Part shown: positions 1 through 19,815 of the stretch, piece after piece
Layout of the letters: each line of letters starts with the position of its first letter
Position numbering within the stretch: position 1 is the stretch's first letter
DNA from: Candidatus Iainarchaeum sp.
Lineage (GTDB): Archaea > Iainarchaeota > Iainarchaeia > Iainarchaeales > CSSED10-239
Direction of reading: 5' to 3'
Length of the DNA stretch: 32,000 nucleotides
NCBI GenBank assembly: GCA_037441475.1
Contig: JBBISB010000001.1
Span: forward strand, 366,418-398,417
Notes under the pieces: model-generated
Told to the model about the DNA's origin: nothing
The model's input: only the letters and a program-made list of their open reading frames with translations
Databases searched by the model: none
Position numbers and translations under genes: made by a program

Positions 1-913
1 TTTTATTTTGTTTTAGTAAATAATTATTTTTATTTTGCCTTTTTAGAAATCTTTTAACATTTGATTTTTTTAATCTTATGTTTGAAGGAAATACCTTATA
101 ACCTAAAAAATCAACACCTTTGCTTACTAAGTTAATATAAATTTTATTCTTTGGAACATCTAATAATAGTTCTTTACTTAAAAATAATTTAATTTTTCTT
201 CTAAAAACCTTTAAATCTTTTTTAGAGTTTGAAAATATTAAAAAATCATCAACATATCTATAATAAAGTTTAATTTTCAAAGTATGCTTAACATATTGAT
301 CTAATTGATTTAGATAAATATTTGCAAACAACTGAGAAGTTAAATTACCTATAGGAATTCCTTTTTCAGTATTATTTACATTAAAAGAATAACTATCAAT
401 TATTTGATATATTAGAGAAAGTAACCTTTCATCCTTAATTCTTTTTTTGATTATTCTTTTTAAAGTGGGTTTATGAACAGAAGGAAAGTATTTTTTAACA
501 TCTTGGTTTAAATAATATTTTGGAGGATTAGTGGTTTGAATGACATTTTTAATTTCAAAAAGGCCTTTATGTGTGCCTTTTCCTTTTCTGCAAGCAAAGG
601 AATTATTTATAAAAGTTTTATCAAAAATAGGTTCTATGATATTAATTATTGAATGTTGAACAACTACATCTCTAAAAGTTGGAGCACTAATAATTCTTTA
701 TTTAGGTTCATAAACTTTAAAACTTCTGTAAGGAGAAAATTGAAAATTTTCTGAAATTAATTGATCTTGTAATAAAAATAGCTCCTTTTCTAAATTTGTT
801 GTAAATTGCAAGACATATTTTTTATTAGGTGTTGATTTTTTTGCTTTTTTATAAGCATTAAAAAGATTTTTAAAAGAAGTAAACTCTTTCCAAAGGTTAT
901 TGTATGATTTCAT
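1..913 (-). CDS. DGR-type reverse transcriptase; 3' end cut by the window edge; one in-frame TAA at 698..700
   Basis: The minus-strand frame is open from the ATG (911..913) to base 2, apart from TAA at 698..700: ...FKVYEPK*RIISAPTFRDVVVQHSIINIIEPIFDKTF... The part after the stop has no Met, so the ORF track lists only 698..913. RT motifs read by hand: SFACRKGKGTHKG; GIPIGNLTSQLFANIYL (IGNLTSQ at 332..352, the [I/L]GxxxSQ signature of DGR RTs versus QGxxxSP in group II intron RTs); YRYVDDFLIF (YVDD at 245..256); VDFLGYKV. Confidence 0.8.
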
Positions 914-1150
914 TTTTAAAAAAACTTATTTAAAGTTAAAAGTTATTACAGATTTCTTTTTACAGACTATAAAAATACTAAATGTAATAACTTATCTTTA
1001 TATTTGATTTTTTAACATAAAAACAATAAAGTTTTTATGGCATACATCATATGCAATCAGGAAACATTTTACAGATGTAGTTTTTTAAAATATTCGCTTT
1101 ATATGTTTTTTTAAAAAAAACAAAAATATAACATATAAACTCTGATAAAA

Positions 1151-1172
1151 CCTTATTTCTTTAAAAATAAGG
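1151..1172 (-). other. Inverted repeat (8-bp stem, 6-nt loop) 5 nt downstream of the VR/stop codon
   Basis: The plus strand reads ccttattt-ctttaa-aaataagg, and the arms are perfect complements. It could be a DGR target-recognition hairpin or simply a terminator-like structure. Confidence 0.45.
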
Positions 1173-1177
1173 AGAAA

Positions 1178-2545
1178 CTACTGAACGCAGCGCAAGCCGA
1201 AGAAGTCGGTCCGGCTTGTAGGAATGTTGGTCAAGTTCAGGGACAAGACACCGGCACTAGAGTCATTGAGCCAGCGACCACCGCGCAAAAAAGCGTATAC
1301 AGTCTTACTTGTGTCATTTATATTACTATAAGTATAAAGCCTACCAACACCATTATTCGCATTATAACTATTACTTGTAAGTAAAAATAAATCTTTATAC
1401 TTTAAAGTAGTGTTACCTAAATTATCAGAATAAATATATTGGTTTCCTCCACCACCTTTTGAATAATCAAAAAAATTAAAGCCAGAAGTATAATTACTAT
1501 CATCAGAATTATTAAATCCATCAGGCTGGTCTTTTATTTGGATAGTATCACTAGTCCATTGCCAAACATTACCTGCTAAATCCCAAATTACCTCTCCATT
1601 AGTTAAAGTTAAAGTTCTTTTTGTAATTCCTGAAAGCTCGTCAAAACCGTCCATGGCCCTAGAGGATGATGAATTTCCTCTTGGAAGGTATCCTGAACCA
1701 ACTTCTCCACCAGACCAGTTGGAGGGAACTTGTTCAATATTTCTTACAATTGTCATCCATTCGTTATTAGTTATTAAATGACCACCGATAGCTTCACAAG
1801 CGGCTATTGCTTCGGTTTGGGTAATTCTTACTATTGGAGAGCCTTCTGGAGTGGACACTAAGGTTCCTGGTGTTGGACATAATTCATAATTATAAGTATT
1901 AGATGTTAAAGAACCAGTATTACAATTAGGATAATCAGCTACAAGATTTCCTTTGCCATCACCATTTACATCCATTTTCATCTGATATTTTGAAACACAA
2001 AAACCCCCTCTTTCATTCATTGTACCATAAAGGTGGTTTCCAGGAACAGGAATAAATCCTTCTGGACAAGAAGATGGATATTTAATATTTTGACGAAGAG
2101 AGGTTTTGGTTATCATTCTATCATTATCAAGGTAAAAAACAATATTTAAGTTGTCTTCTAAAATACCATGATCAATTACTGCTGTCTGGTTTGCAGTAAT
2201 TGTTACTGGTGGGTCTAATGGATTAATATTAGTATTTCCGTGCAAGGAATAACCAGTTATGGTTAAAGAGGTGAAAGGAGAACCATAAGGAGGATTATAC
2301 TCTAAAATAGTTCTGCCATTTATGGAATCTTTTACTTGCAAATAAAAAGAAGTTTCTGATTCTGTGTAAATATCAAGACTTGAGGTTTTACCTAAGGAAT
2401 CATTGGTAAAACCTTTTCCCCAAGAAACAATTATTGCAATAATAGCAACAGCAACAACTATTAAAAGAATGGTTGCAATTAATGGAGAAATTCCTTTCCT
2501 TTTTTTATTTTCCATTTGAAAAAAAATATTTGTATCTATACTCAT
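1178..2545 (-). CDS. DGR variable (target) protein: archaeal type IV pilin-like N-terminus plus FGE-sulfatase / C-type-lectin-fold domain with a C-terminal variable region
   Basis: The N-terminus KRKGISPLIATILLIVVAVAIIAIIVSWG matches the pilins at 29439..30950. The likely true start is ATG 2513..2515 (MENKKRKGISP). The C-terminal half has FGE-sulfatase landmarks: GFIPVPG...FCVSKYQM, ITQTEAIAACEAIGGHLITNNEWM, GNVWQWTSD, FLRGGRW and FGLRCVQ-stop. This is the usual scaffold that carries DGR variable regions. Confidence 0.85.
   Translation of the reverse strand: MSIDTNIFFQMENKKRKGISPLIATILLIVVAVAIIAIIVSWGKGFTNDSLGKTSSLDIYTESETSFYLQVKDSINGRTILEYNPPYGSPFTSLTITGYSLHGNTNINPLDPPVTITANQTAVIDHGILEDNLNIVFYLDNDRMITKTSLRQNIKYPSSCPEGFIPVPGNHLYGTMNERGGFCVSKYQMKMDVNGDGKGNLVADYPNCNTGSLTSNTYNYELCPTPGTLVSTPEGSPIVRITQTEAIAACEAIGGHLITNNEWMTIVRNIEQVPSNWSGGEVGSGYLPRGNSSSSRAMDGFDELSGITKRTLTLTNGEVIWDLAGNVWQWTSDTIQIKDQPDGFNNSDDSNYTSGFNFFDYSKGGGGNQYIYSDNLGNTTLKYKDLFLLTSNSYNANNGVGRLYTYSNINDTSKTVYAFLRGGRWLNDSSAGVLSLNLTNIPTSRTDFFGLRCVQ
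1181..1300 (-). other. Putative DGR variable region (VR); boundaries approximate
   Basis: These are the last ~40 codons of the target gene (YAFLRGGRWLNDSSAGVLSLNLTNIPTSRTDFFGLRCVQ). By hand count, 1181..1297 is about 55% GC with coding-strand A about 15%. The next 100 nt of the same gene (1301..1400) are about 25% GC with coding-strand A about 39%. The 3' end is GC-rich (ggcttgcgctgcgttcag), resembling an IMH element. Confidence 0.7.
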
Positions 2546-2555
2546 AAATGATCTA

Positions 2556-2600
2556 ACATAATATATATAAACATAATATATATAAACATAATATATATAA
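2556..2600. repeat. Three tandem copies of the 15-bp unit cataatatatataaa, plus a degenerate fourth copy to ~2618, upstream of the DGR target gene
   Basis: Unit starts are at 2556, 2571 and 2586 with an exact 15-nt period. On the minus strand each unit reads tttatatatattatg, which has a TTTATATA archaeal TATA-box-like core. Confidence 0.8.
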
Positions 2601-2682
2601 ACAAATTATATATATATAAGAAGATAATATTTATAAAGATATCTAAAGTAAATAAAACTAATAAGTTAAAAAAAAATAAAAA

Positions 2683-2886
2683 TTACTTAGTAATTTTTAC
2701 AAAATAATAAATATCTTTTCCGATACTTGAAAAATCAACCTTAACATTATTTACAGCCATTTTATCTAAAAAATCCTTATATGAAATACCAGCAATGTCT
2801 GCTACCTCTGATAAAGAAATACTTCTTATTTGATATGCTTTAAAAACTAACTTTAGATTTTTAGAGAATTTATTATTTATATCCAT
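2683..2886 (-). CDS. Small UPF0175-like HTH protein (antitoxin-like)
   Basis: 67 aa. SLSEVADIAGISYKDFLDKMAVNNVKV resembles the UPF0175 C-terminal helix-turn-helix. No obvious partner toxin is adjacent. Confidence 0.4.
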   Translation of the reverse strand: MDINNKFSKNLKLVFKAYQIRSISLSEVADIAGISYKDFLDKMAVNNVKVDFSSIGKDIYYFVKITK

Positions 2887-2996
2887 AAATATATTATTTA
2901 TAATAATCTTTTTAAAAGTGAGTAATTAATAAAAAGAAGTATTATATTATCTTCTCTATAATAGTATATAGAAAGAAATAATAAAAAAAGAAAAAC

Positions 2997-5111
2997 ATGT
3001 ATTCAAAAGAAGAAATTACAAAGAAGATACTTGACATTAACAAATACGAAAAACTAAACCCTATGCAAAACTTAGCAAAAGAACATATAGGGACAAACAC
3101 ACTTATCACAACACCAACAGCTTCTGGAAAAACAACAGTCTTTGAAATGTACATGCTTGACTGTTTATTAAACAAGAAAAAAAAAGCAATTTACATCTCT
3201 CCCTTAAAAGCATTAACAACAGAACATTATTTAGAAACTAAAAGAAAGTTTTCAAAAGAATTTAACCTAAAAATAGGACTTTCAACTGGAGACCTGGATT
3301 CAAGTAACAAATATCTTGAAAGTTATGATGTTTTATTTTTAACATATGAAAAATTTGATTCAATTCTAAGACATAAACCTTCATGGTTAAAAAATATTGG
3401 ACTTTTAACAATTGATGAAATTCATGAGCTTGGATCAAATAGAGGTTCAACCTTAGAAGTTATAATTACACAACTAAAACATAGCTATAGAGAAATTACT
3501 CTTCTAGGGTTATCTGCAACCATTAAAAACTCAAAAGAAATATCTGATTGGCTTTCTGCAAAACTAGTTTTAAGTAACTACCGACCAGTTCCTCTTGAAA
3601 CTGGAGTTTTTTATAATGATTCTATTTACTTTGAAGATAGAAAAGAAGACTTAACTTCTCTTACTGTTAAAAACATTAATTTAGGATCAATCATTAAAGA
3701 CACTTTAAAGAAAGAAAAACAAGCAATTGTTTTTTGTGCATCTAGAAAAAATGCAATGTCGTTTGCAAAAAAATATGGAAAAATAATCTCTGGAAGTTTA
3801 AAAGATGAAGAATACCAAAAACTTAGAAAAGCCTCTCAAGAGGTTTTAGAAGCTTTAGAACACCCAACAAAACAATGTGAAAAACTTTCTCTTTCTCTTT
3901 TAATGGGTTCAGCATTTCATCATGCAGGACTGGTCTATAAACAAAGAGAAGTGGTTGAAGAAAATTTTAAGAAAGGAAACATCAAAGTTATTTTTGCAAC
4001 ACCAACTCTTGCAGCTGGAATTAACCTACCAGCCTTTAGGGTGATTATAAACAGTGTTTTTAGATTTTCAGAAGGATCAATGGTTCCAATACCAGTTAAT
4101 GAATTTCAACAAATGGCAGGAAGAGCAGGAAGACCAAGGTATGATAAAAAAGGAGAGGCAATCTGTGTGGTTAACAAAGAAGGAGATATACCTAAGATAT
4201 ATAACACATATATAATATCTGGACCTTCAAACATAGACTCACAACTATCTAAAATAAACATCCTAAGAGGACATCTTTTATCAATGATTCTCATAAACAA
4301 CCTTAGGTCTTTAGAAGAAGTAATCTCTTATATTTCTAAAACATTTTATTATTTTGTTTATGGAAACACAAGTGAGATTAGAAAAAACATACAAGAGATT
4401 ATTTCTGAGTTTATTGGGTATGGTTTTTTAGAAAAGAAAGAAACTGGTTTTGAGATTACCTCTTTAGGTAAGAAAGTGTGTTATCTTTATATTGATCCTC
4501 TTTCAGCAAACAACATCTTAAAAGATTTAGACTTAAAGAAAGAGAAAGATACTAAGGTTTATGAAAAAATATTTACAGTTGTTAATACCTCTGAAATGGC
4601 GCCTTATCTTGTATACAAGCAAGAGAAAGAAAATGATTTGTTTGTTTTTTTTGAAGAGATTAGAAAGAACATTTATTTTGAATATGAGGATATTTATCTT
4701 TTACAAAAACTATATATGACAAAAATTATTCATGAGTGGATTGAAGAAAGAGAAGAAAATTCTTTACTTGAAGAATATAACACAACACCTGGACAGATTA
4801 GAGATATTATTTCAAGAGCAAAATGGATATGCCACTCTACAGTTGAGCTTTTAAAACATAGTAAAGCAAGCTTGATACCTATTAAAGAATATTCAAACCT
4901 TCTTTTAAGGATAAAGTATGGTATAAGAGAAGAGCTTGTTAATTTAGTTGAGATTAAAAATATTGGTAGGGTAAGGGCTAGAAGACTTTATAATAATGGT
5001 ATAAAGAGTGTAAATGATATTAAAAATAATCCAGATAGATTTATTACCTTGGTTGGAAAAATCGGTCTTGAGAGTTTAAAGGAACTTAAGATTGATTATG
5101 AGGAAAAATAA
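2997..5111 (+). CDS. hel308: Ski2-like DNA helicase Hel308
   Basis: 704 aa. Motif I TPTASGKT, motif II DEIH, LSATI, FHHAGL, ATPTLAAGINLPA and QMAGRAGRP are present. There is a C-terminal helix-hairpin-helix region, IKNIGRVRARRLYNNGIKSVNDI. Confidence 0.9.
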   Translation: MYSKEEITKKILDINKYEKLNPMQNLAKEHIGTNTLITTPTASGKTTVFEMYMLDCLLNKKKKAIYISPLKALTTEHYLETKRKFSKEFNLKIGLSTGDLDSSNKYLESYDVLFLTYEKFDSILRHKPSWLKNIGLLTIDEIHELGSNRGSTLEVIITQLKHSYREITLLGLSATIKNSKEISDWLSAKLVLSNYRPVPLETGVFYNDSIYFEDRKEDLTSLTVKNINLGSIIKDTLKKEKQAIVFCASRKNAMSFAKKYGKIISGSLKDEEYQKLRKASQEVLEALEHPTKQCEKLSLSLLMGSAFHHAGLVYKQREVVEENFKKGNIKVIFATPTLAAGINLPAFRVIINSVFRFSEGSMVPIPVNEFQQMAGRAGRPRYDKKGEAICVVNKEGDIPKIYNTYIISGPSNIDSQLSKINILRGHLLSMILINNLRSLEEVISYISKTFYYFVYGNTSEIRKNIQEIISEFIGYGFLEKKETGFEITSLGKKVCYLYIDPLSANNILKDLDLKKEKDTKVYEKIFTVVNTSEMAPYLVYKQEKENDLFVFFEEIRKNIYFEYEDIYLLQKLYMTKIIHEWIEEREENSLLEEYNTTPGQIRDIISRAKWICHSTVELLKHSKASLIPIKEYSNLLLRIKYGIREELVNLVEIKNIGRVRARRLYNNGIKSVNDIKNNPDRFITLVGKIGLESLKELKIDYEEK

Positions 5112-7957: not shown

Positions 7958-10507
7958 CTACCTATATCTTAAGAAAGCTCCAATTCCACCAAAGGTTTCA
8001 AAAAATTGTTTACCTTCTAAGGTTTCAACAGAGATTAGTTCAACCTTTGCATTTGTACTTTGAGAAACTTCTAAAAAATAATTATAAAGATCTACTTCTT
8101 CTACAAGCTCTGCCTTTACACCCTCACAATCTGAATTGGAATTTTCAAACTTTGAAATTGCATCTTCAACTTCATGTTTGTTTTTTACAACCTTTATAAA
8201 CCTTGATTTATCTGAAAGACATTTAAACTTTAAAATTGTCCAATCTAGGCCTTCTGAAACAATTATTGTAGATATTTTACCAATAGCTAAAGCATCCATA
8301 ACATCTTGAAAACCATAGGTTGCTAAGGAGTTTTTTGCAAGGTCTTCAAAAAATTTTGCAATTATTTTTCTTTCTTGAACTAAACCGGTTTCTCTTAAAA
8401 TTTCTTCGGATTTATCTAGAACTTCTTTAATACCTGATTCATCTGTGTAAGAGGTGTCAACTGTTCCTAAGATCTTATCCTTTAACCTGTGATCAAGATC
8501 ACCAATTTCTAAAAATTCATGTTTAGTAAGACCAGGACCGCCAACAATAATTCCCTTAAAATTATCAATACCTACAAAAGCAGTATTTACTTTTTCACCT
8601 ATTCTTTTATAAAATTCCTCTTCATACTTATCTCTTAGTCTTTCAAAACGATGTGCTGAATTATGGACAATTAAACCATTAGCTATAAAAGATTTATTTA
8701 TAACTGAAATATCAGTCATTGTAGTTTTCTTTTTTTCAATAGTTATAGAGTTTATTTTAGCACATAAGTAAGGAAGAGTATAAGATTTAGTTAATTCTTT
8801 TAAAAGAGATTTATCTTTAACATACTCTAGAATAGAACCTTTAAAACAAGACTTACTCATCATTCTATTATTATTAAAAAAATTACTAACCTTTGGAAAC
8901 ATTTCAAGATTATAACCTTTTCTTTCGATTACTTCTCTAACCTTTCTGCCATAAACAGGCAAGGTTCTTGAAAAACTCATTTCTGTTTTGCTTAATAATA
9001 TTTTTTTAATTTTGTTTTGTTTTTCTAAAGAAGTAAAATTAATATTCTTTTCAAAAGAAAAAATAGATTCTTTATCTGAAATAGAAATTACAAAACGATG
9101 ATTTTTTGTATAAGGATTTTTATTGTTATCATACTCTTGAAGAGAAGAAACTATTGCAAATCTAAATAAAGTTAATTGAAGTTGTTGTGCAAGCCTTTTA
9201 TTATTTATTCCAAGATCTATTGATTTTCTAGAAGCGTTAACATACCCTTCAGCATCGTATAGTCCTTTTAAAAAAGAAGCTAAAATCTTATTAGAAGAGG
9301 TTAATATCTTAGAAGGTATTAAAGAATCTCTTGCTTTTTTAATCTCTTTAAACTCCTCTTTAATTAACCTTACAAGAGCAGTTGAAGTAACTCTTAATTG
9401 ATAATAGTTTTTAGAACTTCTAAAAGTTAGAGAGGAATTGACATTAAAATATTTATCAAATAACTTTTTATACTCTAAAATAACCTCTTCTCTTGATTCA
9501 AAAAAAGTAACTCTATCTTTTTCAAGAGAACCATCTCCTAAAAGATAACCTATAAACTGAGAAAAAGTAGTATCAAGCTTTGAAGGTATTTTTATAGACG
9601 GTTTATTTAGTTTAGAAATATACTTTTTAGTTTCAAAAAAAGAATCTTTTGTTTTATAAGAAAGTTTTTCTGGAAATAATAAATAATCTTCTTTAGTAAG
9701 TTCTTTAGATGTTTTTTCAATAACTCCAGAAGGGGTTAATACAAAGAAGATATGGTCTTCACTTGCTTTAATTTCCATTCCAGGCGCTTTTGTTTTTATT
9801 GTATAGGTGGAATTTTTAATAACATCCCATTTTTTAATAACCTTAGAATCAATAAATTTATTATTTTTAAAATCCATGGAAGACAGGTTTGTTTTTGTAG
9901 AAATTTCATTAATATCTAATAAATCACCATTAGATAAAGAAACAAAGGAATCTTTTAAACATTGTCCCCCAGCCTTTGTCTTACCAGGAACATTTGAAGT
10001 TTCTGTAAAAATAATTTGTTTTGATTTACCTCTTAAGATAGCGACTGTAGCTTCTCGTTTATCCATAACAATTAAACCATACACATCATCTGTTTGAGCC
10101 ATATCCTCTAAAGGGTCTATATGGAAAGTTGAATCACACCAATAAAGCTTTGTGGTTAATCTGTTTGGTGGAACAATAATTAATAAAACAACATCTGATT
10201 TTGAAGGGTTTGTTGAAACATCTCCTGCAAATAAAACTAAACCAGTTGCAGGAAGTTTAAAATCAATTTGTTTTAAATAATTAATAATTCTTTTTAAAGC
10301 AGCTTGAACATTTTTTCTGGTCTGTGCACTCTTAATGTTTGCTGATTGACTCATTTCGTCTGTTAATTGTTTTATAGCTGTACTTCTGTCTGCGTCAGGT
10401 GGAAGATAAAGACTTATAAGCTGAGTTCCTTGCCCTTTATAGGTCTTTATGACTTTTACTTTTTTTTTTAAAAGCATTAAATTAGCATCATCCATAAAAA
10501 AACACAT
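7958..10507 (-). CDS. prf1: Peptide chain release factor aRF1, interrupted by an intein
   Basis: The N-extein contains KGQGTQLISLYLPP ... PGKTKAGGQ. The C-extein starts SAHRFERLRDKYEEEF and runs through typical aRF1 domain 3. The likely start is the ATG at 10493..10495 (MDDANL...). Confidence 0.95.
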   Translation of the reverse strand: MCFFMDDANLMLLKKKVKVIKTYKGQGTQLISLYLPPDADRSTAIKQLTDEMSQSANIKSAQTRKNVQAALKRIINYLKQIDFKLPATGLVLFAGDVSTNPSKSDVVLLIIVPPNRLTTKLYWCDSTFHIDPLEDMAQTDDVYGLIVMDKREATVAILRGKSKQIIFTETSNVPGKTKAGGQCLKDSFVSLSNGDLLDINEISTKTNLSSMDFKNNKFIDSKVIKKWDVIKNSTYTIKTKAPGMEIKASEDHIFFVLTPSGVIEKTSKELTKEDYLLFPEKLSYKTKDSFFETKKYISKLNKPSIKIPSKLDTTFSQFIGYLLGDGSLEKDRVTFFESREEVILEYKKLFDKYFNVNSSLTFRSSKNYYQLRVTSTALVRLIKEEFKEIKKARDSLIPSKILTSSNKILASFLKGLYDAEGYVNASRKSIDLGINNKRLAQQLQLTLFRFAIVSSLQEYDNNKNPYTKNHRFVISISDKESIFSFEKNINFTSLEKQNKIKKILLSKTEMSFSRTLPVYGRKVREVIERKGYNLEMFPKVSNFFNNNRMMSKSCFKGSILEYVKDKSLLKELTKSYTLPYLCAKINSITIEKKKTTMTDISVINKSFIANGLIVHNSAHRFERLRDKYEEEFYKRIGEKVNTAFVGIDNFKGIIVGGPGLTKHEFLEIGDLDHRLKDKILGTVDTSYTDESGIKEVLDKSEEILRETGLVQERKIIAKFFEDLAKNSLATYGFQDVMDALAIGKISTIIVSEGLDWTILKFKCLSDKSRFIKVVKNKHEVEDAISKFENSNSDCEGVKAELVEEVDLYNYFLEVSQSTNAKVELISVETLEGKQFFETFGGIGAFLRYR
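8660..9961 (-). mobile_element. Intein (434 aa) with a LAGLIDADG homing-endonuclease domain, inserted between GGQ and S of aRF1
   Basis: It starts with Cys (CLKDSFVSLSNGDLL, codon 9959..9961). Block B is SEDH. LAGLIDADG motifs are FIGYLLGDGSL and FLKGLYDAEGYV. It ends ...NGLIVHN (Asn codon 8660..8662), followed by the +1 Ser. Confidence 0.9.
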
Positions 10508-11573: not shown

Positions 11574-12587
11574 CTACTCTATAAGAGTAAAAGTAGCATA
11601 TACGTTTTTGGCAGTTGTCATATTATTAATAAAACACCACTCATCTGATACACTACTACAATCTCAGGACCAGGCTGTAAAAACACTACCAGGATTAGCA
11701 GTTGCCTTTATTGAGAAGGTAGATCCACATTGCATGTAAAATGTACAAGAACTATTATTACAACCAATCCACGGATAATTGTTAGATAAATTTCCCTGTC
11801 CACTACCAATAATATATGTTGTAAGAAGATAAGTTCTTACTCCAACTCTTAAATTAACAGTTTTATTACTATCCATTATAAGATTACAGGGGTTATTACC
11901 AGAACAAGCTCCACCCCAATTAGGAGTAAGTAAATAATAACAACCAGACGCGCTTCCAATTAAAGTTACGGTTGTATTTTCATTATAACTAATACATCCA
12001 GAACCGCAACTAGTTCCTGGAATACTACTATTTATGCCTATAGCCGCAGAATAATTAGAACTATAGTTTAAATTATATACTACATTGATTATGTAAGTTC
12101 TAGTTAATAAACCACTATCTTGATAATTATTTTTAAAAGCTTTAGCTCTTATTGTATAAGTTCCATTTGAAGATAAAGGTATAGGCGTACCATTATAAAC
12201 AGTACCAGTTGTAGACGTTGGATCAGAACCATTAATAGTATATCTTATTTCTGCACCAGATGTAGTTGTAGATAAAGTTACATTTTGATAAGAAGTATAA
12301 GTTCCGGCAGTAGGAGAACTTGTAAGAGTTGCAACAATAAAATTAAAAGTATTTAAGGTTATAACCACACTTGATTGATAACCAAATCTATAAGCTATGG
12401 CTTTTATTACTGTATTGTTAGTGTTTAAAATAATCGCAGTGCCTGGAGATATTTCTGTACCAATTGTTTCTGTTGGAGTAGTTCCATCTAAAGTATAACG
12501 TATCATTGAACTTGGAGTTGTTGTGTTTAAAGTTACAGATTGATCATTATTATAATTTCCGCCATTTAAACTAAAGGTTGGAAACAA
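11574..12587 (-). CDS. C-terminal segment of a large pilin-anchored adhesin; contains an in-frame TGA at 11664..11666
   Basis: It has two CHB_HEX_C/Fn3-associated-type repeats (…IRYTLDGTTPT…, …IRYTINGSDPT…) followed by two Cys-rich InlB-B-repeat-like modules. After TGA the frame continues DCSSVSDEWCFINNMTTAKNVYATFTLIE to TAG at 11574..11576, which completes the second module. Confidence 0.65.
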
Positions 12588-14298
12588 TTAAATTAATATT
12601 AAATAATTTTTCAATAACTGGGCTTATGGAATAACCAGGTGCATAACAAACAGCATTAATCGTTGTGGTGGTTATTAAATTTAAAACAGAAGAATAAATA
12701 TTACCAACATCTCTTGTTGGAATGGATCCATCTGTTGTGTACCTTATGGTGCTTGATGGAGTTGAACAACTTAAAGTAACAGAAACACTGTTAGTATGTA
12801 TTCCACCATTTGGTGAAAATAAAGGGATTACTGCAGGATCACTAATATTAAAGTTACCTTCAGCAACTGGGCTTGAAGACCAACCAGTTTTATAGACCCT
12901 TGCTTTTAAAGTTAAATTGTTTGAAACAAAAACACCTGAACCAGTATAAAGATTACTTGTTTCATTAGGATCAGTTCCATCAGTAGTATATCTTATAGTG
13001 TAAGGAGAGGGTGTGATTGTGTTAAGTAAAATAGATTGATTATTATAAGTTCCTGGAACCGGACTAAAGGTTGGATCTAATGCAGGAAGGGTAATGTTAT
13101 AATCTGCTTGAGAAACTATACTTGAAAAAGAACCAACATATGCTATTGTCTTTATAGTTTTACTTGAAGAAACATTAATTGGTCCAGAATAGATTGGACT
13201 TGTTTCTGTTGGATCAATACCAGTTGTTGTGTATCTTATGGTTGCACCTGCGTTACTGTTACTTAAAATTACATTCTGTATAGAGGTGTAAGTTCCACCT
13301 GGAGGAGTTATCGCCACAGGGTCTAATGGAACAAAGAAAGTATATGTAAATGTTGAAACTGAACTTGGAAGATAATTTAGTTTACAAGCAATTGCTTTAA
13401 TTGTAGTATCATTTAAAACTGTTATTGGAGAGGTGTACTCTGTAAAAACACCTGAACAATCAGGAGAGGAAGAATCTATAGTATAATAAATAACTGCATC
13501 TTGAGTTGTAGTTGACAAAGAAATATCAATTGGGTTTATTAAATTTATTTGATTTTCTAAACTTGACTCTACAGATGATACTGTGTAATAAGAAGAATTA
13601 TATGTACCTGATGAAAGGTTAGAAAAAAGAGAACCGGTAAAAGAAATAGCATTAATAGTTGTGCCAGCAGTAATTGATAAAGGAGAAATATATATGTTTG
13701 AAGATAAATTAGGATTACTTCCATCTAAAGTATAATAAATATTAAGAACAGGATCGGCAGAAGTTAAAGAAACTAACATAGGAAATTCAGATACATTATA
13801 TGTACCTGCAGGCGGGTCAAAAATTGGTCTCGAAACAATTGAAGTTTTTGGACCACTATCACTCCAATTAAAAGAATATCTAGAAGATCTTTTTACTTGA
13901 TTATTTTTAGATACTTCTATAGATAAGTAATAAGTATCTCCACAAAATAATTTGCCTAAATTTATACCAGATGCTATTAATCCAATTGTATTATTTGGAT
14001 TTAAATTATTCATATCCTGTAATTCAGTATTAGCAGTAACAATATAATCTAGATTTCCAACAACCTTATTACTGGAATCTTCTATTATTAAACTAAAAGT
14101 ACCTTCTTTAGATAATGGCTTCCAAGAAAAGGTTAAAAGCCCTTCTCTTATACCAGGAGGATCTATATATTCACAATTAAAATAATTTGCAGTTACTGAA
14201 ACGATAATAGGAGGTAAAGGTCCATCTGTAGAAGAAGCAATTTGATTCCCTTGAGTAGAAGCATTATCTCTTCCTTGCCCCCCGACCCCCCATTGATA
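12571..14298 (-). CDS. Middle segment of the same adhesin (five CHB_HEX_C-like beta-sandwich repeats)
   Basis: The ORF track starts at Met 14013, but the frame is open upstream to 14298 (YQWGVGGQGRDNASTQGNQIASSTDGPLPP...). It contains a repeated P.FSP.GGTY...V.L....IRYTTDG.DP signature. Confidence 0.7.
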   Translation of the reverse strand, partial: YQWGVGGQGRDNASTQGNQIASSTDGPLPPIIVSVTANYFNCEYIDPPGIREGLLTFSWKPLSKEGTFSLIIEDSSNKVVGNLDYIVTANTELQDMNNLNPNNTIGLIASGINLGKLFCGDTYYLSIEVSKNNQVKRSSRYSFNWSDSGPKTSIVSRPIFDPPAGTYNVSEFPMLVSLTSADPVLNIYYTLDGSNPNLSSNIYISPLSITAGTTINAISFTGSLFSNLSSGTYNSSYYTVSSVESSLENQINLINPIDISLSTTTQDAVIYYTIDSSSPDCSGVFTEYTSPITVLNDTTIKAIACKLNYLPSSVSTFTYTFFVPLDPVAITPPGGTYTSIQNVILSNSNAGATIRYTTTGIDPTETSPIYSGPINVSSSKTIKTIAYVGSFSSIVSQADYNITLPALDPTFSPVPGTYNNQSILLNTITPSPYTIRYTTDGTDPNETSNLYTGSGVFVSNNLTLKARVYKTGWSSSPVAEGNFNISDPAVIPLFSPNGGIHTNSVSVTLSCSTPSSTIRYTTDGSIPTRDVGNIYSSVLNLITTTTINAVCYAPGYSISPVIEKLFNINLIVSNL

Positions 14299-14401
14299 TT
14301 AAAATTGTAATAATAACTACAGCAATAAGCACTGCTCCACCAACCAATATCAAAGACTCTAGATTCCCTTGCCCCTTTGTTTTTTTAATCATATAATCCA
14401 T
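14264..14401 (-). CDS. N-terminal fragment of the adhesin: class III (type IV pilin-like) signal peptide
   Basis: 45 codons, below the ORF-track cutoff: MDYMIKKTKGQGNLESLILVGGAVLIAVVIITILISMGG... The frame is lost at the G-runs. Confidence 0.55.
   Translation of the reverse strand: MDYMIKKTKGQGNLESLILVGGAVLIAVVIITILISMGGRGARKR
14278..14291. repeat. C6-GA-C6 (G6-TC-G6 on the coding strand) homopolymer pair at the adhesin frameshift site
   Basis: The plus strand reads ccccccgacccccc. Removing one G would join the signal-peptide frame to the long adhesin frame. Confidence 0.8.
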
Positions 14402-14596
14402 GATAAATATAAAAATAAGTTACCGTAAACTATTTAATAGTTTCGAAAAATAAAATGTAAAGAGAAAGGTAGAAATTTAATCAAATATAAAAATTAATCC
14501 AAATATTAACATTTGCTCTTGTTTAAAATAAATTAAAATCAGTTACTTCTAAAAAAATATAATAGGTTTAAGATAGGTAGATAGTTTCTAAAAAAA

Positions 14597-16180
14597 TTAT
14601 AAAAAAGCATCAATATCCTTGTTTTTATCTTCTGCCTTTGAATAAAAATTCTTAGCAAGACCTGAAAGAGAGACATCTAAATGAGAATCTTTTGAATATT
14701 TTTTTCTAACCTTGAAAAAAACAGGGTATGAAGAGGCTTCACCAACAACCAAAGCCTCGCCTACTCTTAAGGAAGTTATCATCTCAACAGACTTAGAGTC
14801 AAGACCTTCTGAAGACTCACCTATATGTTTTAAATCATAGGGGTTTGTTATTCTTAGGATAATGTGAGTATTTGCTTGAGAGAGAATAGTTGTTGAAAGC
14901 TTTACTGGTCTTTGAGAGATTAGACAAAGACAAGAACCAAATTTTCTACCCTCTCTTGCTATTGTCTCTAAAATTGATTTTGCAAGAGCCTTATCTCTAG
15001 TTGCACTTTCAGGAGCAAACTGATGCGCTTCTTCAACAACTAAAAGGAAAGGAGGGACTTGATTTGTTCCTGCTGTTCTTGCGTAGAAAAGTTTATGTGC
15101 AAAGTAATAAAGTATTAATTGTTTTTTCTTTAAGTTAATCTCTCTTGAAAGATCAATAATGGTAAGCTTACCAGGCTTTACAATATCAAAGATTGAAGGA
15201 GAATCTATTTTTGAAAAAAAATTATAATCTAAAAGCTCTCCTAGGGCATTTACTAAAGGCTTTAAGATAGCCTCCTTAATATCTTGTTTTTCAAGCTCCT
15301 TTATAACATCCTTTAAATCAAAGGGACCTAAACCATTTTTCTTATCTTCATTTAATTTCTTTAAGATAGAACCTAGTTCGCGTTTTTGAGCTGAACTTAA
15401 GGAAGGGAGAAGAGAGGAAAAGAAATTAAGAGAGAGTGTTGAAACACCAATCTTTATTTCAAAAGAATTAATCTTCATTGTCTTTGAAGAATAGTCCTTA
15501 AAACCCTTATCTTGTTCTTTTAGGTTTTCAGAAAAATGAGAATATTCTCCATGAACATCAAAAAGTAAAACAGCAACTTGACCATCTTCTTTTTTTCTAT
15601 CTAATATCTCCTCTAACATAACAGAGGTTAAATAACTTTTACCAGAACCTGACTGTGCTAAAATAGCTAAGTGTTTTTGAAGTAAACGATCCATACAAAA
15701 AGTGACAGGAAGCTGTGGAAAGTCAATTTGTCCAAGAAATAAACCATTTTCTTTCAAATGTAAAAACTTAAACAAAACCTTTTCTTCACACATTAATACC
15801 TTTGAGCCTGGAGAAACTGGAAGAGTAGATCTTACAAAAAAACCATCTGTTGATAAAACCCCTAAAGGCTTTATGTTTCCTTGTAAAAACTCCCAATCGC
15901 TTGTTGGAAACTGTTCATTAATATCATAATCTGAGTTTTCAAACTCCTTAACAGACTCATTGTTTTCATAATACCTGTTTTGAGAAGAAACATCAGTTAC
16001 AAGACCAATTAATTTTCCTTGAGAATAATCTATTTGAACATACTGTCCCTTATAGACCTTTTTATTAGTGCACACAAAAGTGATCTTTGAAGTTGAGGGA
16101 GAATCTAGGCTTGAAATTACAATACCAAGCTCGTTTTCTTTAAAGACCATTTTCTTATAACACCTTTTTTTTATATACAA
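14597..16180 (-). CDS. herA: HerA-type (DUF87) hexameric ATPase/helicase
   Basis: 527 aa. Walker A is AILAQSGSGKSY and Walker B is FLLVVEEAHQFAP. The likely start is Met 11 (MVFKENELG, about 16150). Confidence 0.85.
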   Translation of the reverse strand: MYIKKRCYKKMVFKENELGIVISSLDSPSTSKITFVCTNKKVYKGQYVQIDYSQGKLIGLVTDVSSQNRYYENNESVKEFENSDYDINEQFPTSDWEFLQGNIKPLGVLSTDGFFVRSTLPVSPGSKVLMCEEKVLFKFLHLKENGLFLGQIDFPQLPVTFCMDRLLQKHLAILAQSGSGKSYLTSVMLEEILDRKKEDGQVAVLLFDVHGEYSHFSENLKEQDKGFKDYSSKTMKINSFEIKIGVSTLSLNFFSSLLPSLSSAQKRELGSILKKLNEDKKNGLGPFDLKDVIKELEKQDIKEAILKPLVNALGELLDYNFFSKIDSPSIFDIVKPGKLTIIDLSREINLKKKQLILYYFAHKLFYARTAGTNQVPPFLLVVEEAHQFAPESATRDKALAKSILETIAREGRKFGSCLCLISQRPVKLSTTILSQANTHIILRITNPYDLKHIGESSEGLDSKSVEMITSLRVGEALVVGEASSYPVFFKVRKKYSKDSHLDVSLSGLAKNFYSKAEDKNKDIDAFL

Positions 16181-16201
16181 AAATTATTTTAAATATACAA
16201 A

Positions 16202-17008
16202 TCATCTAATATAGTTTGAAGGAGCGGAAGGAGCATCTTGCTTTTGAGAAAGTTCTTCTAAGTTTTTAGAAATTTCACTAAAGGACTGTTCTATCTTCTT
16301 TGCACTCTCATCTATTTTTTTAAGATTAACATTTAATTTAAAAATATTTATTAAAACCTCTATAAGTTGTTTAGCAGAAGATGGATCTCCATAAGTAAGC
16401 TTACTGTTAGTTTCTCCCATTAAACAAATACCAGGTATTTTGTGGTGTGTAAAGGAAACACCTAAAAGAAGACCAGCAACTCCTGATATTAAAGCATCTT
16501 GACCTTTATCTTGGAAGAAAAGATTATTTACTTTTTTCTTTTCTAAAGCTTGTTTTGTTTTAATATCTGTTGCAACAGAAATTACTCTTGGTTTAGAAGT
16601 TATTCTTTTATCTCCTATATTAAGACCTGCAAAGGTATATATTTCCTTAACCTTATGTTTCTTTGCAAAAGAAGCTATGCTTTCTGAAAACTCATAATGT
16701 TGGTTACTGTTTAAGATATTACCTAGGGCAGGTTGAACTGGTCCTGCTACGAATAAAAAATCTTGCTTTGCTGTCTTGTATAAGTAAATCTCATCATAGA
16801 TAAGCTCTAGAACTGAGTTTTTTTCATGAACTGCAGGTGGGAAGGAATCAGAATAGATTTTTCCAACTAAAACTGGTTTTGGAGTTAGTTCTTTAATCAA
16901 GTAATCAACAGTTATTTTTCCAACCAAGCCAATACCAGGAAGCCCTACAAAAAGAACAGGATTTTTTAAAGTTTTTAAAGGTTTTATAATCTCAATAGTT
17001 GTAACCAT
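16202..17008 (-). CDS. PAC2-family (proteasome assembly chaperone-like) protein
   Basis: 268 aa. The N-terminal LFVGLPGIGLVGKITVDYLI loop and overall layout resemble PAC2/COG1938 proteins. It ends with TGA. Confidence 0.6.
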   Translation of the reverse strand: MVTTIEIIKPLKTLKNPVLFVGLPGIGLVGKITVDYLIKELTPKPVLVGKIYSDSFPPAVHEKNSVLELIYDEIYLYKTAKQDFLFVAGPVQPALGNILNSNQHYEFSESIASFAKKHKVKEIYTFAGLNIGDKRITSKPRVISVATDIKTKQALEKKKVNNLFFQDKGQDALISGVAGLLLGVSFTHHKIPGICLMGETNSKLTYGDPSSAKQLIEVLINIFKLNVNLKKIDESAKKIEQSFSEISKNLEELSQKQDAPSAPSNYIR

Positions 17009-17039
17009 ATTTATTTCACCATCTTTATTTTAATAAAAT

Positions 17040-17804
17040 TTATTTTTCTTCCTTCTTTAAAACCTCAAAATGTGCCTTCTTCTTTAAGGCTTTTGAGATG
17101 CTTGCTGTTATTTCATCAAATTTTTTTGCAGATTGTTTAAATTCCTTAGAGGTTACTTTAAGTTCATATTTTCCTGGACCAAAGTAAGTTATCTTTGAAT
17201 CTGGGTTTTTATCTTGAACATCAACTAATACTTTTTTAATACTTTCAAAACCACCGGACTCATCTGAAGTTATTGTCATTATGCCTACAATATCCTTGTC
17301 TTTAATAGTTATGTTTTTATCTAAAATTTCAAATAAAAGTTTATGATATTTTTTATCAATCTCAGGATAGTAATCTCCACCGTGCTTTAAAATGTTTAAA
17401 AAACCCTTATAAAGAGAGTTTTCTCTTTCAATGATTGGATTTGCAACATCCTCCCATATCTTATCAGGTGTAACATCTATTTCTTTTGCAATAACTGTTA
17501 AAAGACTTTGAGCTCTTAAAAATAACCTATATTCAGAAATTTTTCTTTTCTCATCTGCATCAGTTATTCTACTAAAAGAAATGTCAATATGTTTCTTTTC
17601 TTCATCAACCTTTAAGACCTTTGCTGCTCTTATCTGGTTTTGTTTAACATGGTTGTGGATGTTTTTAATCCAGGTAGAGGATATCTGGGAGATGTGTACA
17701 AAACCCTCCATGTTATCATACTCTAAAAGTTCTACAAAAACACCAAAATCAGTTATTTTTGAAACCTTACAAATTACTACATCATTTATGTTTGGAAAAT
17801 CCAT
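17040..17804 (-). CDS. eif2a: Translation initiation factor aIF2 alpha subunit
   Basis: 254 aa. The N-terminal S1 domain is VICKVSKITDFGVFVELLEYDNMEGFVHISQIS, followed by helical and alpha-beta domains of typical size. Confidence 0.9.
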   Translation of the reverse strand: MDFPNINDVVICKVSKITDFGVFVELLEYDNMEGFVHISQISSTWIKNIHNHVKQNQIRAAKVLKVDEEKKHIDISFSRITDADEKRKISEYRLFLRAQSLLTVIAKEIDVTPDKIWEDVANPIIERENSLYKGFLNILKHGGDYYPEIDKKYHKLLFEILDKNITIKDKDIVGIMTITSDESGGFESIKKVLVDVQDKNPDSKITYFGPGKYELKVTSKEFKQSAKKFDEITASISKALKKKAHFEVLKKEEK

Positions 17805-17823
17805 TAATTATCAACTCTTTTCT

Positions 17824-18390
17824 TTAATCTATTTTTTTAATAAGATTTTTAGACTCTAATATCTTTATCATGTCTTCAGGAATCTCACACACTTGTTCTT
17901 TTTCAAAAGGCCCATACTCTTTTAAATCAGCACCTATGAAAGCTGGGATGCTCTCTATAAATTTAACCTTTGCCATTACAAGGTTATCTGCTTTTTTATT
18001 TTTTTTAGAAACTCCAAAAATATTTAAGGAGTGTTCGTTTTGTTTATCTATAAGCTTAATAATTCCTTTTGCAAAATCTACTTCAAAGTCAATTAAGCCT
18101 TCCTCTTCAAAGTCATTTGTTCTACTGTACATTAAACAGAGGTTAAGACATTTCTTTGTTCTAATCTCTCTTATCTTTTCAATCATTTTTTTTAAAGTTT
18201 CAAACTTTTTTATAGATGTAGGAGAAAAAGACTCTTCCATTTCCTCAGTATATCTTTTTCTTTCATCAAGTAAAAACTTTTTAAGTTCTTTATAAAAATC
18301 AGGATTTAATTTTGTTAATTTTGGAGACTTTACTTCAAGCCTATATATCTTTCTTAATTCATCGTAATCTAAACTGTAATCGTCATTCAA
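17824..18390 (-). CDS. GINS-family replication protein (Gins51/Gins15-like)
   Basis: 188 aa helical protein (ELRKIYRLE..., DFYKELKKFL). It lies immediately downstream of, and overlaps, priS. GINS-priS linkage is known in archaea. Confidence 0.55.
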   Translation of the reverse strand: MNDDYSLDYDELRKIYRLEVKSPKLTKLNPDFYKELKKFLLDERKRYTEEMEESFSPTSIKKFETLKKMIEKIREIRTKKCLNLCLMYSRTNDFEEEGLIDFEVDFAKGIIKLIDKQNEHSLNIFGVSKKNKKADNLVMAKVKFIESIPAFIGADLKEYGPFEKEQVCEIPEDMIKILESKNLIKKID

Positions 18391-19636: not shown

Positions 19637-19697
19637 AAATATATATTATTCAAAATATATAAAAAGTATGTTATTTTAGTAAAGAAGAAGGTATTTA

Positions 19698-19796
19698 TAT
19701 AAATTCTTTCCCTTAATAAAGAGTTCTCGCTATAAACTCTTTCTTCTAAAAAAGAATAATTAGTATAAACCCTTTCCTTTAGGAAAGAGTTTTTTT
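19698..19796. repeat. Three tandem imperfect 33-bp repeats between the rad50 stop and the priS start
   Basis: Units start at 19698, 19731 and 19764: tataaattctttcccttaataaagag.., tataaactctttcttctaaaaaagaa.., tataaaccctttcctttaggaaagag.. The shared core is TATAAA-nn-CTTTC-n(7)-AAAGA, and copy 3 contains the dyad ctttcc/ggaaag. Confidence 0.75.
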
Positions 19797-19815
19797 AAAC
19801 AACTTTATAAAAACC

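What the first reader, a model, noticed from the sequence alone, without database searches (positions are those of the whole stretch)
1181..1300. Composition jump at the target gene's 3' end is consistent with adenine-directed mutagenesis
By hand count, 1181..1297 is about 55% GC with only about 15% A on the coding strand. The adjacent 100 nt of the same gene are about 25% GC with about 39% coding-strand A. A GC-rich, A-depleted block confined to the last ~40 codons of a gene in a very AT-rich genome is what a VR copied from a TR with A-to-N substitutions would look like. The final 18 nt (ggcttgcgctgcgttcag) form a GC-rich block in the position of an IMH.
Basis: seen in the sequence. Interest (0 to 1): 0.7.

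Follow-up and report, generated by a model that had tools for sequence, protein, structure and literature searches.

The report
Frozen variable region of a collapsed DGR
The GC-rich tail of this archaeal surface-protein gene is a real hypermutation cassette (a DGR variable region), but the machinery that rewrote it appears broken here: the template copy and helper gene seem to have been deleted by recombination, and the reverse transcriptase carries a stop codon.

Summary
Window 1181-1297 is 55.6% GC with 14.5% coding-strand A. The next 100 nt are 25% GC and 38% A. This is the most GC-rich 117-mer in the 32 kb window.

The DGR reading also holds. The gene (1178-2545, minus strand; pilin-like N-terminus plus an FGE/C-type-lectin-like domain) is the orthologue of DGR target genes in Ca. 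Forterrea-like DPANN archaea. In those relatives, VR/TR mismatches fall at TR adenines. Against the closest available TR, our block differs at 17 of 32 adenines and at 7 of 79 other bases.

The twist is that this genome shows no TR. The DNA after the stop codon (window 1177-914) is 92% identical to the relatives' TR-downstream spacer RNA, not to their VR-downstream flank. The 128-aa ORF, Avd, the TR and a (GACGG)x4 element are missing. This is the product expected from VR-TR recombination in the shared 26-nt 3' end.

The adjacent reverse transcriptase carries GAA->TAA at conserved Glu72. The relatives' second DGR site is empty in this organism. A second genome (L012) shows the same collapse, and it arose independently.

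Most likely this is a relic, frozen VR. Misassembly across the shared 3' end is not excluded. Read mapping would decide.

The parts
1178..2545 (-). DGR target gene, 455 aa. It has an archaeal type IV pilin/archaellin-like N-terminal signal followed by an FGE-sulfatase/C-type-lectin-like domain, and the VR forms the last ~39 codons.
   Evidence: ORF. Pfam FGE-sulfatase E=2.6e-10. NCBIfam TIGR02537 scores 25.4 against a cut-off of 20. It is 76-81% identical to the DGR target genes of relatives.
1181..1296 (-). VR-type block: the stretch homologous to the template repeats (TR) of related genomes. This is the GC-rich, A-poor segment of the finding.
   Evidence: Against the closest TR, 17/32 TR-adenine positions are changed versus 7/79 other positions.
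1201..1276 (-). Span containing all the substituted TR-adenine sites (AAC/AAT codons of the template). It also holds four private non-adenine substitutions at 1263, 1224, 1219 and 1218.
   Evidence: Site list. The private substitutions (G26A, C65T, G70A, G71C) are invariant in all 8 TRs examined. They change conserved scaffold residues, G->D and TPG->IPT.
1175..1200 (-). Invariant 3' segment (TCGGCTTGCGCTGCGTTCAG + TAG + TTT). It is shared by VR and TR in relatives, sits in the IMH position, and is the inferred crossover interval of the VR-TR deletion.
   Evidence: The last VR-type (mutated A) site is 1201. Spacer-type sequence starts at 1174.
914..1177 (-). Spacer homologous to the relatives' TR-downstream region (the DGR RNA 'spacer'), now directly abutting the target gene's stop codon. 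It is a conserved structured RNA.
   Evidence: It is 92% identical to the L005 TR-downstream region and 60% (noise level) to the L005/L010 VR-downstream region. The alignment and consensus fold give 59 pairs, 7 with compensatory changes. No Rfam match.
1151..1172 (-). First hairpin of the spacer (CCTTATTT-loop-AAATAAGG), immediately after the stop codon.
   Evidence: One pair covaries in L016.
1..913 (-). DGR-type reverse transcriptase pseudogene. The first 304 of 336 codons lie in the window; the rest runs off the window start. It carries the YVDD and IGNLTSQ motifs.
   Evidence: Translation. It is 87% identical to the RT of the intact DGR in L005 and 91% identical to the RT of L032. RVT_1 hit.
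698..700 (-). In-frame TAA replacing the GAA (Glu72) that is conserved in all five related RTs.
   Evidence: The same stop is present in the independent Logan contig L026, seen in two sequencing runs.
1..4842 (.). The part of a perfect 6,352-bp tandem duplication unit that lies in the window. The unit carries the whole relic locus. Its left edge is at window 4842, inside the helicase gene.
   Evidence: Both copies, including both VRs, are 100% identical.

Best explanation
Window 1181-1296 is the variable region (VR) of a diversity-generating retroelement that has collapsed and stopped working.

Shown: in the ancestral arrangement, still intact in Ca. Forterrea multitransposorum and other relatives, the order is target gene with VR, a (GACGG)x4 element, a 128-aa ORF, Avd, TR, a structured spacer, then RT.

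Inferred: VR and TR are about 120-nt direct repeats roughly 1.2 kb apart, and their 3' ends are identical for 26 nt. Homologous recombination or replication slippage in that stretch deleted everything between them. The result is one hybrid repeat, VR-type through its last adenine site (window 1201) and joined to the TR's downstream spacer and the RT gene.

Consequence: with no separate TR and no Avd, mutagenic retrohoming cannot proceed as it does in known DGRs. The RT then acquired, or already had, a GAA->TAA nonsense mutation. The downstream ATPase is reduced to an 86-aa remnant, and the organism has no second DGR at the site where relatives carry one.

The GC-rich, A-poor composition is therefore a fossil. 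The GC richness comes from the template's scaffold codons. The A depletion comes from past A-to-N reverse transcription. The gene itself still looks intact and probably encodes a surface pilin-like binding protein with a now fixed specificity.
For: 1. Orthology and synteny with intact DGR loci (helicase-UPF0175-target-...-RT-FKBP-proteasome).
2. VR/TR pairs in relatives show adenine-only mismatches. One strain (L005 versus L013/L033) differs at 18 positions in the 1374-nt gene, all of them in the last 100 nt.
3. Our block against orthologous TRs: 16-19 adenine sites changed versus 7-12 non-A sites, Fisher p from 1e-6 to 4e-5.
4. No TR-like copy in the window, L001 or L002 under an A-tolerant scan.
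5. The post-stop DNA is 92% identical to the TR-downstream spacer and only about 60% to the VR-downstream flank. The (GACGG)x4 element, present after the VR in all 12 intact loci, is absent from the window and from L001, L002 and L012.
6. RT nonsense codon at conserved Glu72, reproduced in Logan contig L026 from two runs.
7. No Avd, 128/131-aa ORF, intact RT or paralogous target from the 671,531-bp contig was found in the protein searches or cluster listings.
8. The second DGR site is empty in this organism (L027).
9. The same collapsed architecture occurs in L012, whose housekeeping genes nest it among genomes with intact loci (89-98% aa identity) while ours lies outside that group (76-87%). 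This implies independent events.
10. Four private non-adenine substitutions hit conserved scaffold residues; intact VRs show 0-1.
11. The two tandem copies have identical VRs.
12. Logan contig L026 starts exactly one base after the last adenine site. With k=31 and only 26 nt shared, this needs at least two alleles joined to the spacer at that site, so a VR-type junction is probably present in the reads.
Against: 1. The VR-to-spacer join crosses a 26-nt exact repeat, and it was not verified with reads. L026 covers only the part of the junction that a TR-spacer junction would also have.
2. A short contig, L022, shows a VR-spacer join in a protein that looks like an assembly chimera of two paralogues. 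Such joins can therefore be artefacts.
3. All spacer RNA stems are intact in our copy, so either the collapse is recent or the RNA is still under selection.
4. The full target protein is absent from the Logan assemblies, and L026's start hints at VR heterogeneity in the sample. That is unexpected if the element has long been dead.
5. The four 'private' substitutions could simply reflect a diverged, now lost TR.
6. Other contigs of this MAG could not be inspected for a distant TR.
Confidence: 0.68

Rival explanations
1. Assembly artefact. The real genome has an intact DGR (VR, downstream element, 128-aa ORF, Avd, TR, spacer, RT). The assembler jumped from the VR into the TR's downstream spacer through the 26-nt sequence shared by the VR and TR 3' ends, and so skipped about 1.2 kb.
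For: VR and TR share TCGG...CAGTAGTTT exactly in relatives. L022 (NPIE01025101.1) shows a VR-spacer join in a contig whose protein is a mosaic of the two paralogous targets of one genome; its VR is identical to one that sits in an intact locus in the sister assembly. The same contig carries a suspicious perfect 6.35-kb tandem duplication.
Against: 26 nt is shorter than the final k-mers of usual assemblers. With k=31, an intact locus would give no branch where Logan contig L026 starts, yet the contig starts there in two runs. No Avd or 128-aa ORF from this organism surfaced in any protein cluster. The RT nonsense codon, the ATPase remnant, the empty second locus and the scaffold substitutions all fit a truly decayed element. 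The same architecture appears in an unrelated assembly, L012.
Confidence: 0.18
2. The VR is still being diversified. One route is in trans, by a complete DGR elsewhere in the genome, since cross-locus templating occurs in relatives. The other is a self-templating mode in which the target mRNA 3' end plus the fused spacer RNA acts as its own template.
For: In L013/L033 the locus-1 VR carries three mismatches to its own TR that match A/T states of the locus-2 TR on the same contig, so trans templating happens in this family. The fused transcript would have the same VR/TR-plus-spacer layout as a DGR RNA, with all stems intact. The collapse recurs in L012 with an intact RT. L026's start and the absence of the full target protein from Logan suggest VR heterogeneity in the sample.
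Against: The only RT found in this organism has a stop at codon 72. Avd is absent. The syntenic second locus is empty. The two tandem VR copies are identical. L012's VR shows 6 non-adenine mismatches to its genome's surviving locus-2 TR, so trans service is not evident there either.
Confidence: 0.07
3. Not DGR-related. The block is a conserved GC-rich C-terminal motif, or a horizontally acquired GC-rich patch, kept by ordinary selection.
For: The scaffold codons (GCGCGGTGG, GGCYTGCGCTG) are conserved and GC-rich in all homologues, including in TRs.
Against: Homologues with this C-terminus sit next to Avd, TR and RT. Differences from TRs concentrate on adenines. Between-strain differences are confined to the VR. 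A DGR-type RT lies 264 nt downstream in our window.
Confidence: 0.02

Closest known systems
Intact DGR of Candidatus Forterrea multitransposorum (CP045477.1, locus L005) and sister metagenomic loci (L009-L011, L013-L015, L033, L034)
   Same: Same syntenic position. The target gene is 76-81% identical, the RT 75-87% identical and the spacer 83-92% identical. The VR scaffold and 3' invariant block are the same.
   Different: The relatives keep the (GACGG)x4 element, the 128/131-aa ORF, Avd (NF033474 above cut-off), a separate TR and an uninterrupted RT. Ours has none of these, and its RT has a stop codon.
DGRs of DPANN archaea and CPR bacteria, as surveyed in the literature (groundwater set summarised in Wu et al. 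2018, PMC5758913; Roux et al. 2021, PMC8144416)
   Same: An archaeal DGR with a C-type-lectin/FGE-like target and A-to-N mutagenesis, in an ultra-small AT-rich genome.
   Different: Those surveys define DGRs by an RT plus a TR/VR pair. This locus would fail such detection because no TR exists.
Bordetella phage BPP-1 DGR (prototype; from established knowledge, and 10.1101/2025.08.18.670894 for component requirements)
   Same: The relatives have the same order, target(VR)-avd-TR-RT. The VR sits at the 3' end of a CLec-fold gene, followed by a GC-rich invariant 3' block, and a spacer RNA lies downstream of the TR.
   Different: In BPP-1, IMH and IMH* differ at several positions, and bRT, Avd and TR are each essential. 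Here the VR and TR 3' ends are identical for 26 nt. That identity is what makes the collapse possible, and two of the three essential parts are missing.
Degenerate DGR loci of Thiohalocapsa PB-PSB1 (PMC10907252)
   Same: Loci in which key machinery is missing or pseudogenised while the VR-bearing target persists.
   Different: There the decay is linked to transposons and MITE-like repeats, and each class keeps one complete locus that can serve the others. Here the decay route is a VR-TR fusion, and no complete locus was found in the organism.

Membership tests
Diversity-generating retroelement (DGR) | Reverse transcriptase of the DGR clade next to the target | tested here: met
   The RT starts 264 nt downstream of the target. 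It has YVDD and IGNLTSQ (the DGR-type [I/L]GxxxSQ motif, from established knowledge). It is 87-91% identical to RTs of loci with Avd+TR+VR. It carries an in-frame TAA at codon 72, so it is a pseudogene.
Diversity-generating retroelement (DGR) | A TR/VR repeat pair in the same genome, differing at TR adenines | tested here: not met
   No second copy was found in the 32-kb window, in 10 kb beyond it, or in the tandem copy. The second syntenic DGR site is empty. The rest of the 671-kb contig could not be read directly.
Diversity-generating retroelement (DGR) | VR differences from the template concentrated at adenines | tested here: met
   Orthologous TRs served as proxy: 17/32 A sites versus 7/79 non-A sites against L032 (p=1.3e-6), with similar results for seven other TRs.
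Diversity-generating retroelement (DGR) | VR at the 3' end of a target gene with a C-type-lectin/FGE-like fold | tested here: met
   Pfam FGE-sulfatase at residues 232-342, E=2.6e-10. The best PDB sequence matches are SUMF2/FGE. The VR is the last ~39 codons.
Diversity-generating retroelement (DGR) | Accessory protein (Avd) | tested here: not met
   No ORF lies between the target and the RT (264 nt). Relatives encode Avd there (NF033474, 92.4 bits against a cut-off of 80). No Avd cluster member comes from the 671,531-bp contig.
Diversity-generating retroelement (DGR) | IMH-type invariant block at the VR 3' end that directs homing | tested here: inconclusive
   The position and invariance are as expected (26 nt identical between VR and TR in relatives). 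Function was not tested, and no IMH/IMH* difference exists within the repeat.
Diversity-generating retroelement (DGR) | Population-level hypervariability confined to VR adenine-templated sites | not testable with these tools
   Reads cannot be mapped here. Indirect hints: Logan contig L026 begins one base after the last A site in two runs, and the full target protein is absent from Logan. Guessed truncated products were not on record. In the relative strain L005/L013 the feature is met.
Degenerate / relic DGR locus | A recognisable VR-bearing target with core machinery missing or pseudogenised | tested here: met
   TR and Avd are absent, the RT has a nonsense codon, and the downstream ATPase is reduced to an 86-aa C-terminal remnant.

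The most novel reading that the evidence does not exclude
The compact 'target-VR / spacer RNA / RT' arrangement, seen independently in two lineages, might be more than debris. It could be a minimal, self-templating DGR. In that mode the 3' end of the target mRNA, now fused to the structured spacer, serves as its own template, so that cDNA made from the VR rewrites the VR without a separate TR or Avd. The apparent VR heterogeneity in the read sets would be its trace.
Probability: 0.05. Interest if true: 0.85.

Novelty: new member of a known kind. Interest (0 to 1): 0.4.

Why it matters
DGRs in DPANN archaea are known, and degenerate DGR loci have been described, so the VR itself is not new. The locus adds three things.

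1. It gives a concrete, sequence-resolved decay route. The VR and TR are direct repeats with an identical 3' end, and a crossover there removes the TR, Avd and the VR-downstream element in one step. The result is a target gene with a frozen specificity. The collapse appears in two independent lineages of one family.
2. Detectors that require an RT plus a TR/VR pair will miss such relics. Composition alone (a GC-rich, A-poor tail in an AT-rich genome) can flag them.
3. The comparison yielded by-products that can be tested in the intact relatives: a structured spacer RNA with covariation, a (GACGG)x4 element after every VR, and evidence that one locus's TR can rewrite the other locus's VR.

Tried and rejected
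- TR search inside the window, L001 and L002, by repeat finding and by an ungapped scan that treats template adenines as wildcards: only self-matches.
- Exact scan of GTDB representative genomes for the 21-nt 3' block: two hits, in a Ramlibacter and an Acidobacteria MAG. The Ramlibacter hit, the one read, lies in ordinary GC-rich coding sequence with no AAC-rich repeat and is a chance match. This genome is not in that collection.
- Scan of viral contigs for the conserved spacer core: nothing.
- Rfam search of window 600-1500 at a permissive threshold: nothing.
- Metagenome scan with an RT alignment: only 11 loci, too few for a real census of collapsed versus intact architectures.
- Look-up of guessed truncated target proteins, which would exist if a Logan contig ended at the first variable site: none on record, so VR heterogeneity stays unproven.
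- The idea that L012's fused VR is served in trans by its surviving locus-2 DGR: 6 non-adenine mismatches to that TR, so not supported.
- Using 8 non-adenine differences as a 'decay clock': reduced to 4 once a closer TR (L032) and all TR variants were considered, so this is only weak evidence.
- A repeat finder on L003/L004 failed on a strand argument and was not repeated.

Full report
**1. Observation**

- Window 1181-1297 is 55.6% GC, with 14.5% A on the coding (minus) strand.
- The neighbouring 100 nt of the same gene are 25.0% GC with 38% A.
- The window as a whole is 28.4% GC. Sliding 117-nt windows have a mean of 28.4% and sd of 5.5%.
- The block contains the single most GC-rich 117-mer in 32 kb (56.4%). 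The runner-up, at 46%, is in the same gene.

The block is the last ~39 codons of ORF 1178-2545(-), 455 aa. The 18-nt 3' string occurs once.

**2. What the gene and its neighbours are**

- The protein has an archaellin/type IV pilin N-terminal signal (TIGR02537, above cut-off) and an FGE-sulfatase/C-type-lectin-like domain (Pfam E=2.6e-10). Its nearest solved sequences are SUMF2/FGE.
- A reverse transcriptase starts 264 nt downstream on the same strand and runs off the window start. Its full sequence was recovered from the source contig, GCA_964526055.1 CAZGHU010000001.1 (671,531 bp).
- That RT is 336 codons with YVDD and IGNLTSQ, but has an in-frame TAA at codon 72.
- All five related RTs have GAA (Glu) at that position, so the stop is a single G->T nonsense change.

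**3. No template repeat**

Repeat searches and an adenine-tolerant scan found no second copy of the block in the window or in about 10 kb beyond it.

**4. Relatives with intact elements**

The target protein has close homologues at 70-81% identity. Their C-termini follow FLRGGxWxxGTxAGVLxLxLxxTPGxRxxxxGLRCV, with the x positions hypervariable.

Syntenic loci were retrieved from Ca. Forterrea multitransposorum CP045477 (L005; name from PMC10833476) and from other assemblies (L009, L010, L011). They show this order: target, 128/131-aa ORF, Avd, a 120-nt TR, a spacer of about 260 nt, then RT. Avd passes the NCBIfam DGR-Avd model.

Within the repeat, VR versus own-TR mismatches are as follows:

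| Locus | Mismatches at adenines | Mismatches elsewhere |
|---|---|---|
| L009 | 21 | 0 |
| L010 | 17 | 0 |
| L011 | 18 | 0 |
| L005 | 14 | 1 |

Two samples of one strain (identical RT DNA) differ at 18 positions of the 1374-nt target gene, all in the last 100 nt. This DGR family is therefore canonical and active.

**5. Our block is a VR of that family**

Against eight TRs, our block differs at 16-19 of 30-33 adenines and at 7-12 of 78-81 other bases. Against the closest TR (L032, whose RT is 91% identical to ours) the figures are 17/32 versus 7/79, Fisher p=1.3e-6.

The TRs are themselves 49-52% GC and 25-26% A, while VRs are 55-64% GC and 10-16% A. So the GC jump is mainly the template's scaffold, and the A depletion is the mutagenesis signature.

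**6. The twist: VR fused to the TR's 3' flank**

- In relatives the VR is followed by '...TAGTTTTTAGAAAAAA...' and, 37-45 nt on, a (GACGG-N3-4)x4 element. This element is present in all 12 intact loci.
- In relatives the TR is followed by '...TAGTTTCTCCTTATT...', the start of the spacer.
- In our window the stop codon is followed by the spacer type. Window 1177-914 is 92% identical to the L005 TR-downstream region and about 60% (background) to VR-downstream regions.
- The (GACGG)x4 element is absent from the window.
- The block is VR-type through its last adenine site (ATC->TTC, window 1201). The switch must therefore lie in the 26 nt (window 1200-1175) that VR and TR share exactly.

This is the product expected from unequal homologous recombination or slippage between the two direct repeats. 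It deletes the (GACGG)x4 element, the 128-aa ORF, Avd and the separate TR.

**7. Other signs of decay**

- The ORF after the RT is an 86-aa C-terminal remnant of the AAA_14/DUF4143 ATPase that follows the RT in L005.
- Relatives carry a second DGR between a Lactamase_B gene and PheRS-alpha (L009, L011, L014, L034).
- In our organism that site is empty. L027, which carries the PheRS-alpha found on the 671,531-bp contig, has 125 nt between the Lactamase_B gene and the 264-aa ORF.
- No Avd, 128/131-aa ORF, intact RT or paralogous target from the 671,531-bp contig appeared in the searches or cluster listings.
- Four substitutions in our VR are at positions that are non-adenine and invariant in all TRs (window 1263, 1224, 1219, 1218). 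They change conserved scaffold residues (G->D, TPG->IPT). Intact VRs show 0-1 such differences and L012 shows none.

**8. Recurrence**

L012 (GCA_028700905.1) has the same target-VR-spacer-RT architecture, but with an uninterrupted 336-aa RT.

Its housekeeping genes are 89-98% identical to those of L005 and L010, both of which have intact loci. Ours are 76-87% identical to all three. The two collapses are therefore independent.

L012's genome still has a complete locus-2 DGR (L034). However, its fused VR has six non-adenine mismatches to that TR, so trans service is not evident.

**9. Is the join real?**

It crosses a 26-nt exact repeat and could be a misassembly. L022, a 2.4-kb contig, shows such a join in what looks like a chimera of two paralogues.

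Four points argue against an artefact in our case:
- Logan assemblies of SRR11582162/3 reproduce L001 11346-14055 exactly, including the RT stop.
- The Logan contig begins one base after the last adenine site.
- With k=31, an intact locus would not branch there, so at least two alleles joined to the spacer are implied.
- The independent decay features in section 7 fit a real loss.

I put the artefact at about 0.18. Read mapping would settle it.

**10. Activity**

Known DGRs require RT, Avd and TR (10.1101/2025.08.18.670894 for BPP-1). Here two of the three are absent and the RT is truncated.

The locus lies in a perfect 6,352-bp tandem duplication whose two VRs are identical. I therefore regard the VR as frozen.

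Two observations keep a small door open for residual or unconventional diversification (about 0.07 in total). All spacer RNA stems are intact. The Logan contig boundaries also hint at VR heterogeneity.

**11. Comparison and novelty**

DGRs in DPANN archaea and degenerate DGR loci are both documented (PMC5758913, PMC8144416, PMC10907252). I found no description of VR-TR collapse as a decay route in the papers searched. The Forterrea genome paper does not mention its DGRs.

This is a new member of a known kind, with a modestly informative decay mechanism and some testable by-products.

Noticed in passing
window 1-4842 and beyond the window start (L001 7704-14055 = 14055-20406): A perfect (100% identical) 6,352-bp tandem duplication covers most of the helicase gene (all but its 3' end), UPF0175, the target gene, the RT pseudogene, the ATPase remnant, FKBP and the first ~60 nt of the proteasome gene, with 1-nt junction microhomology. 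Logan contigs L026 and L031, each seen in two runs, end exactly at the two unit boundaries, so the junction seems to exist in the reads.
   Followed up: partly
window 914-1177 (-); alignment A3 of nine loci: The TR-downstream spacer is a conserved structured RNA with 59 predicted pairs, 7 of them with compensatory changes. It includes an invariant long-range helix between the end of the repeat (GTAGTTT, window 1181-1175) and AAACTAC (window 1083-1077). No Rfam family matches.
   Followed up: partly
L005 7416-7445, and the same position in 11 other intact loci; absent from the window: A (GACGG-N3-4)x4 element lies 37-45 nt downstream of the VR stop codon in every intact DGR locus examined. It may be a target-side recognition or structural element. 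The collapse removes it.
   Followed up: partly
L013/L033 VR (e.g. L013 2404-2514) versus TRs of L013 and L014 (same contig Ga0210034_1000002): The locus-1 VR has three mismatches to its own TR at C positions. These are A, A and T in the locus-2 TR of the same genome. This suggests that the second locus's TR templated the first locus's VR (cross-locus retrohoming).
   Followed up: partly
L022 (NPIE01025101.1, 2,391 bp; protein P0008): The contig's target protein has the N-terminal half of one paralogue (P0007) and the C-terminal half plus VR of the other (P0006). It then runs straight into the spacer and RT. It is probably an assembly chimera, and it warns that VR-spacer joins can be artefacts.
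   Followed up: partly
window 7958-10507 (-): The aRF1 (peptide chain release factor) gene of 849 aa is interrupted by an intein with a LAGLIDADG homing endonuclease domain. The intein is conserved in relatives (L005, L010).
   Followed up: no
window 2555-2621: A 15-nt tandem repeat (AACATAATATATATA, about 4 copies) lies in the AT-rich region just upstream of the target gene's start. Logan contig L031 ends just beyond this repeat (about window 2574). In L005 a DDE transposase is inserted between UPF0175 and the target gene.
   Followed up: no
window 2399-2497, 29778-29876, 30345-30443, 30840-30938: Four genes share the same pilin/archaellin-like N-terminal signal segment (61-83% nt identity). 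The DGR target is therefore one member of a family of surface pilin-like proteins in this genome.
   Followed up: no
window 12143-13740 (-): A large gene has an internal periodicity of about 245-255 nt (repeat families D2, D3, D5). It is annotated in the source with CHB_HEX_C_1/Fn3_assoc domains and is probably a repetitive surface protein.
   Followed up: no
L001 12817-13077 (just outside the window start): An 86-aa ORF is 40% identical to residues 339-422 of the 421-aa AAA_14/DUF4143 ATPase that follows the RT in L005. It is a gene remnant. The HicAB pair present in L005 is also missing here.
   Followed up: yes
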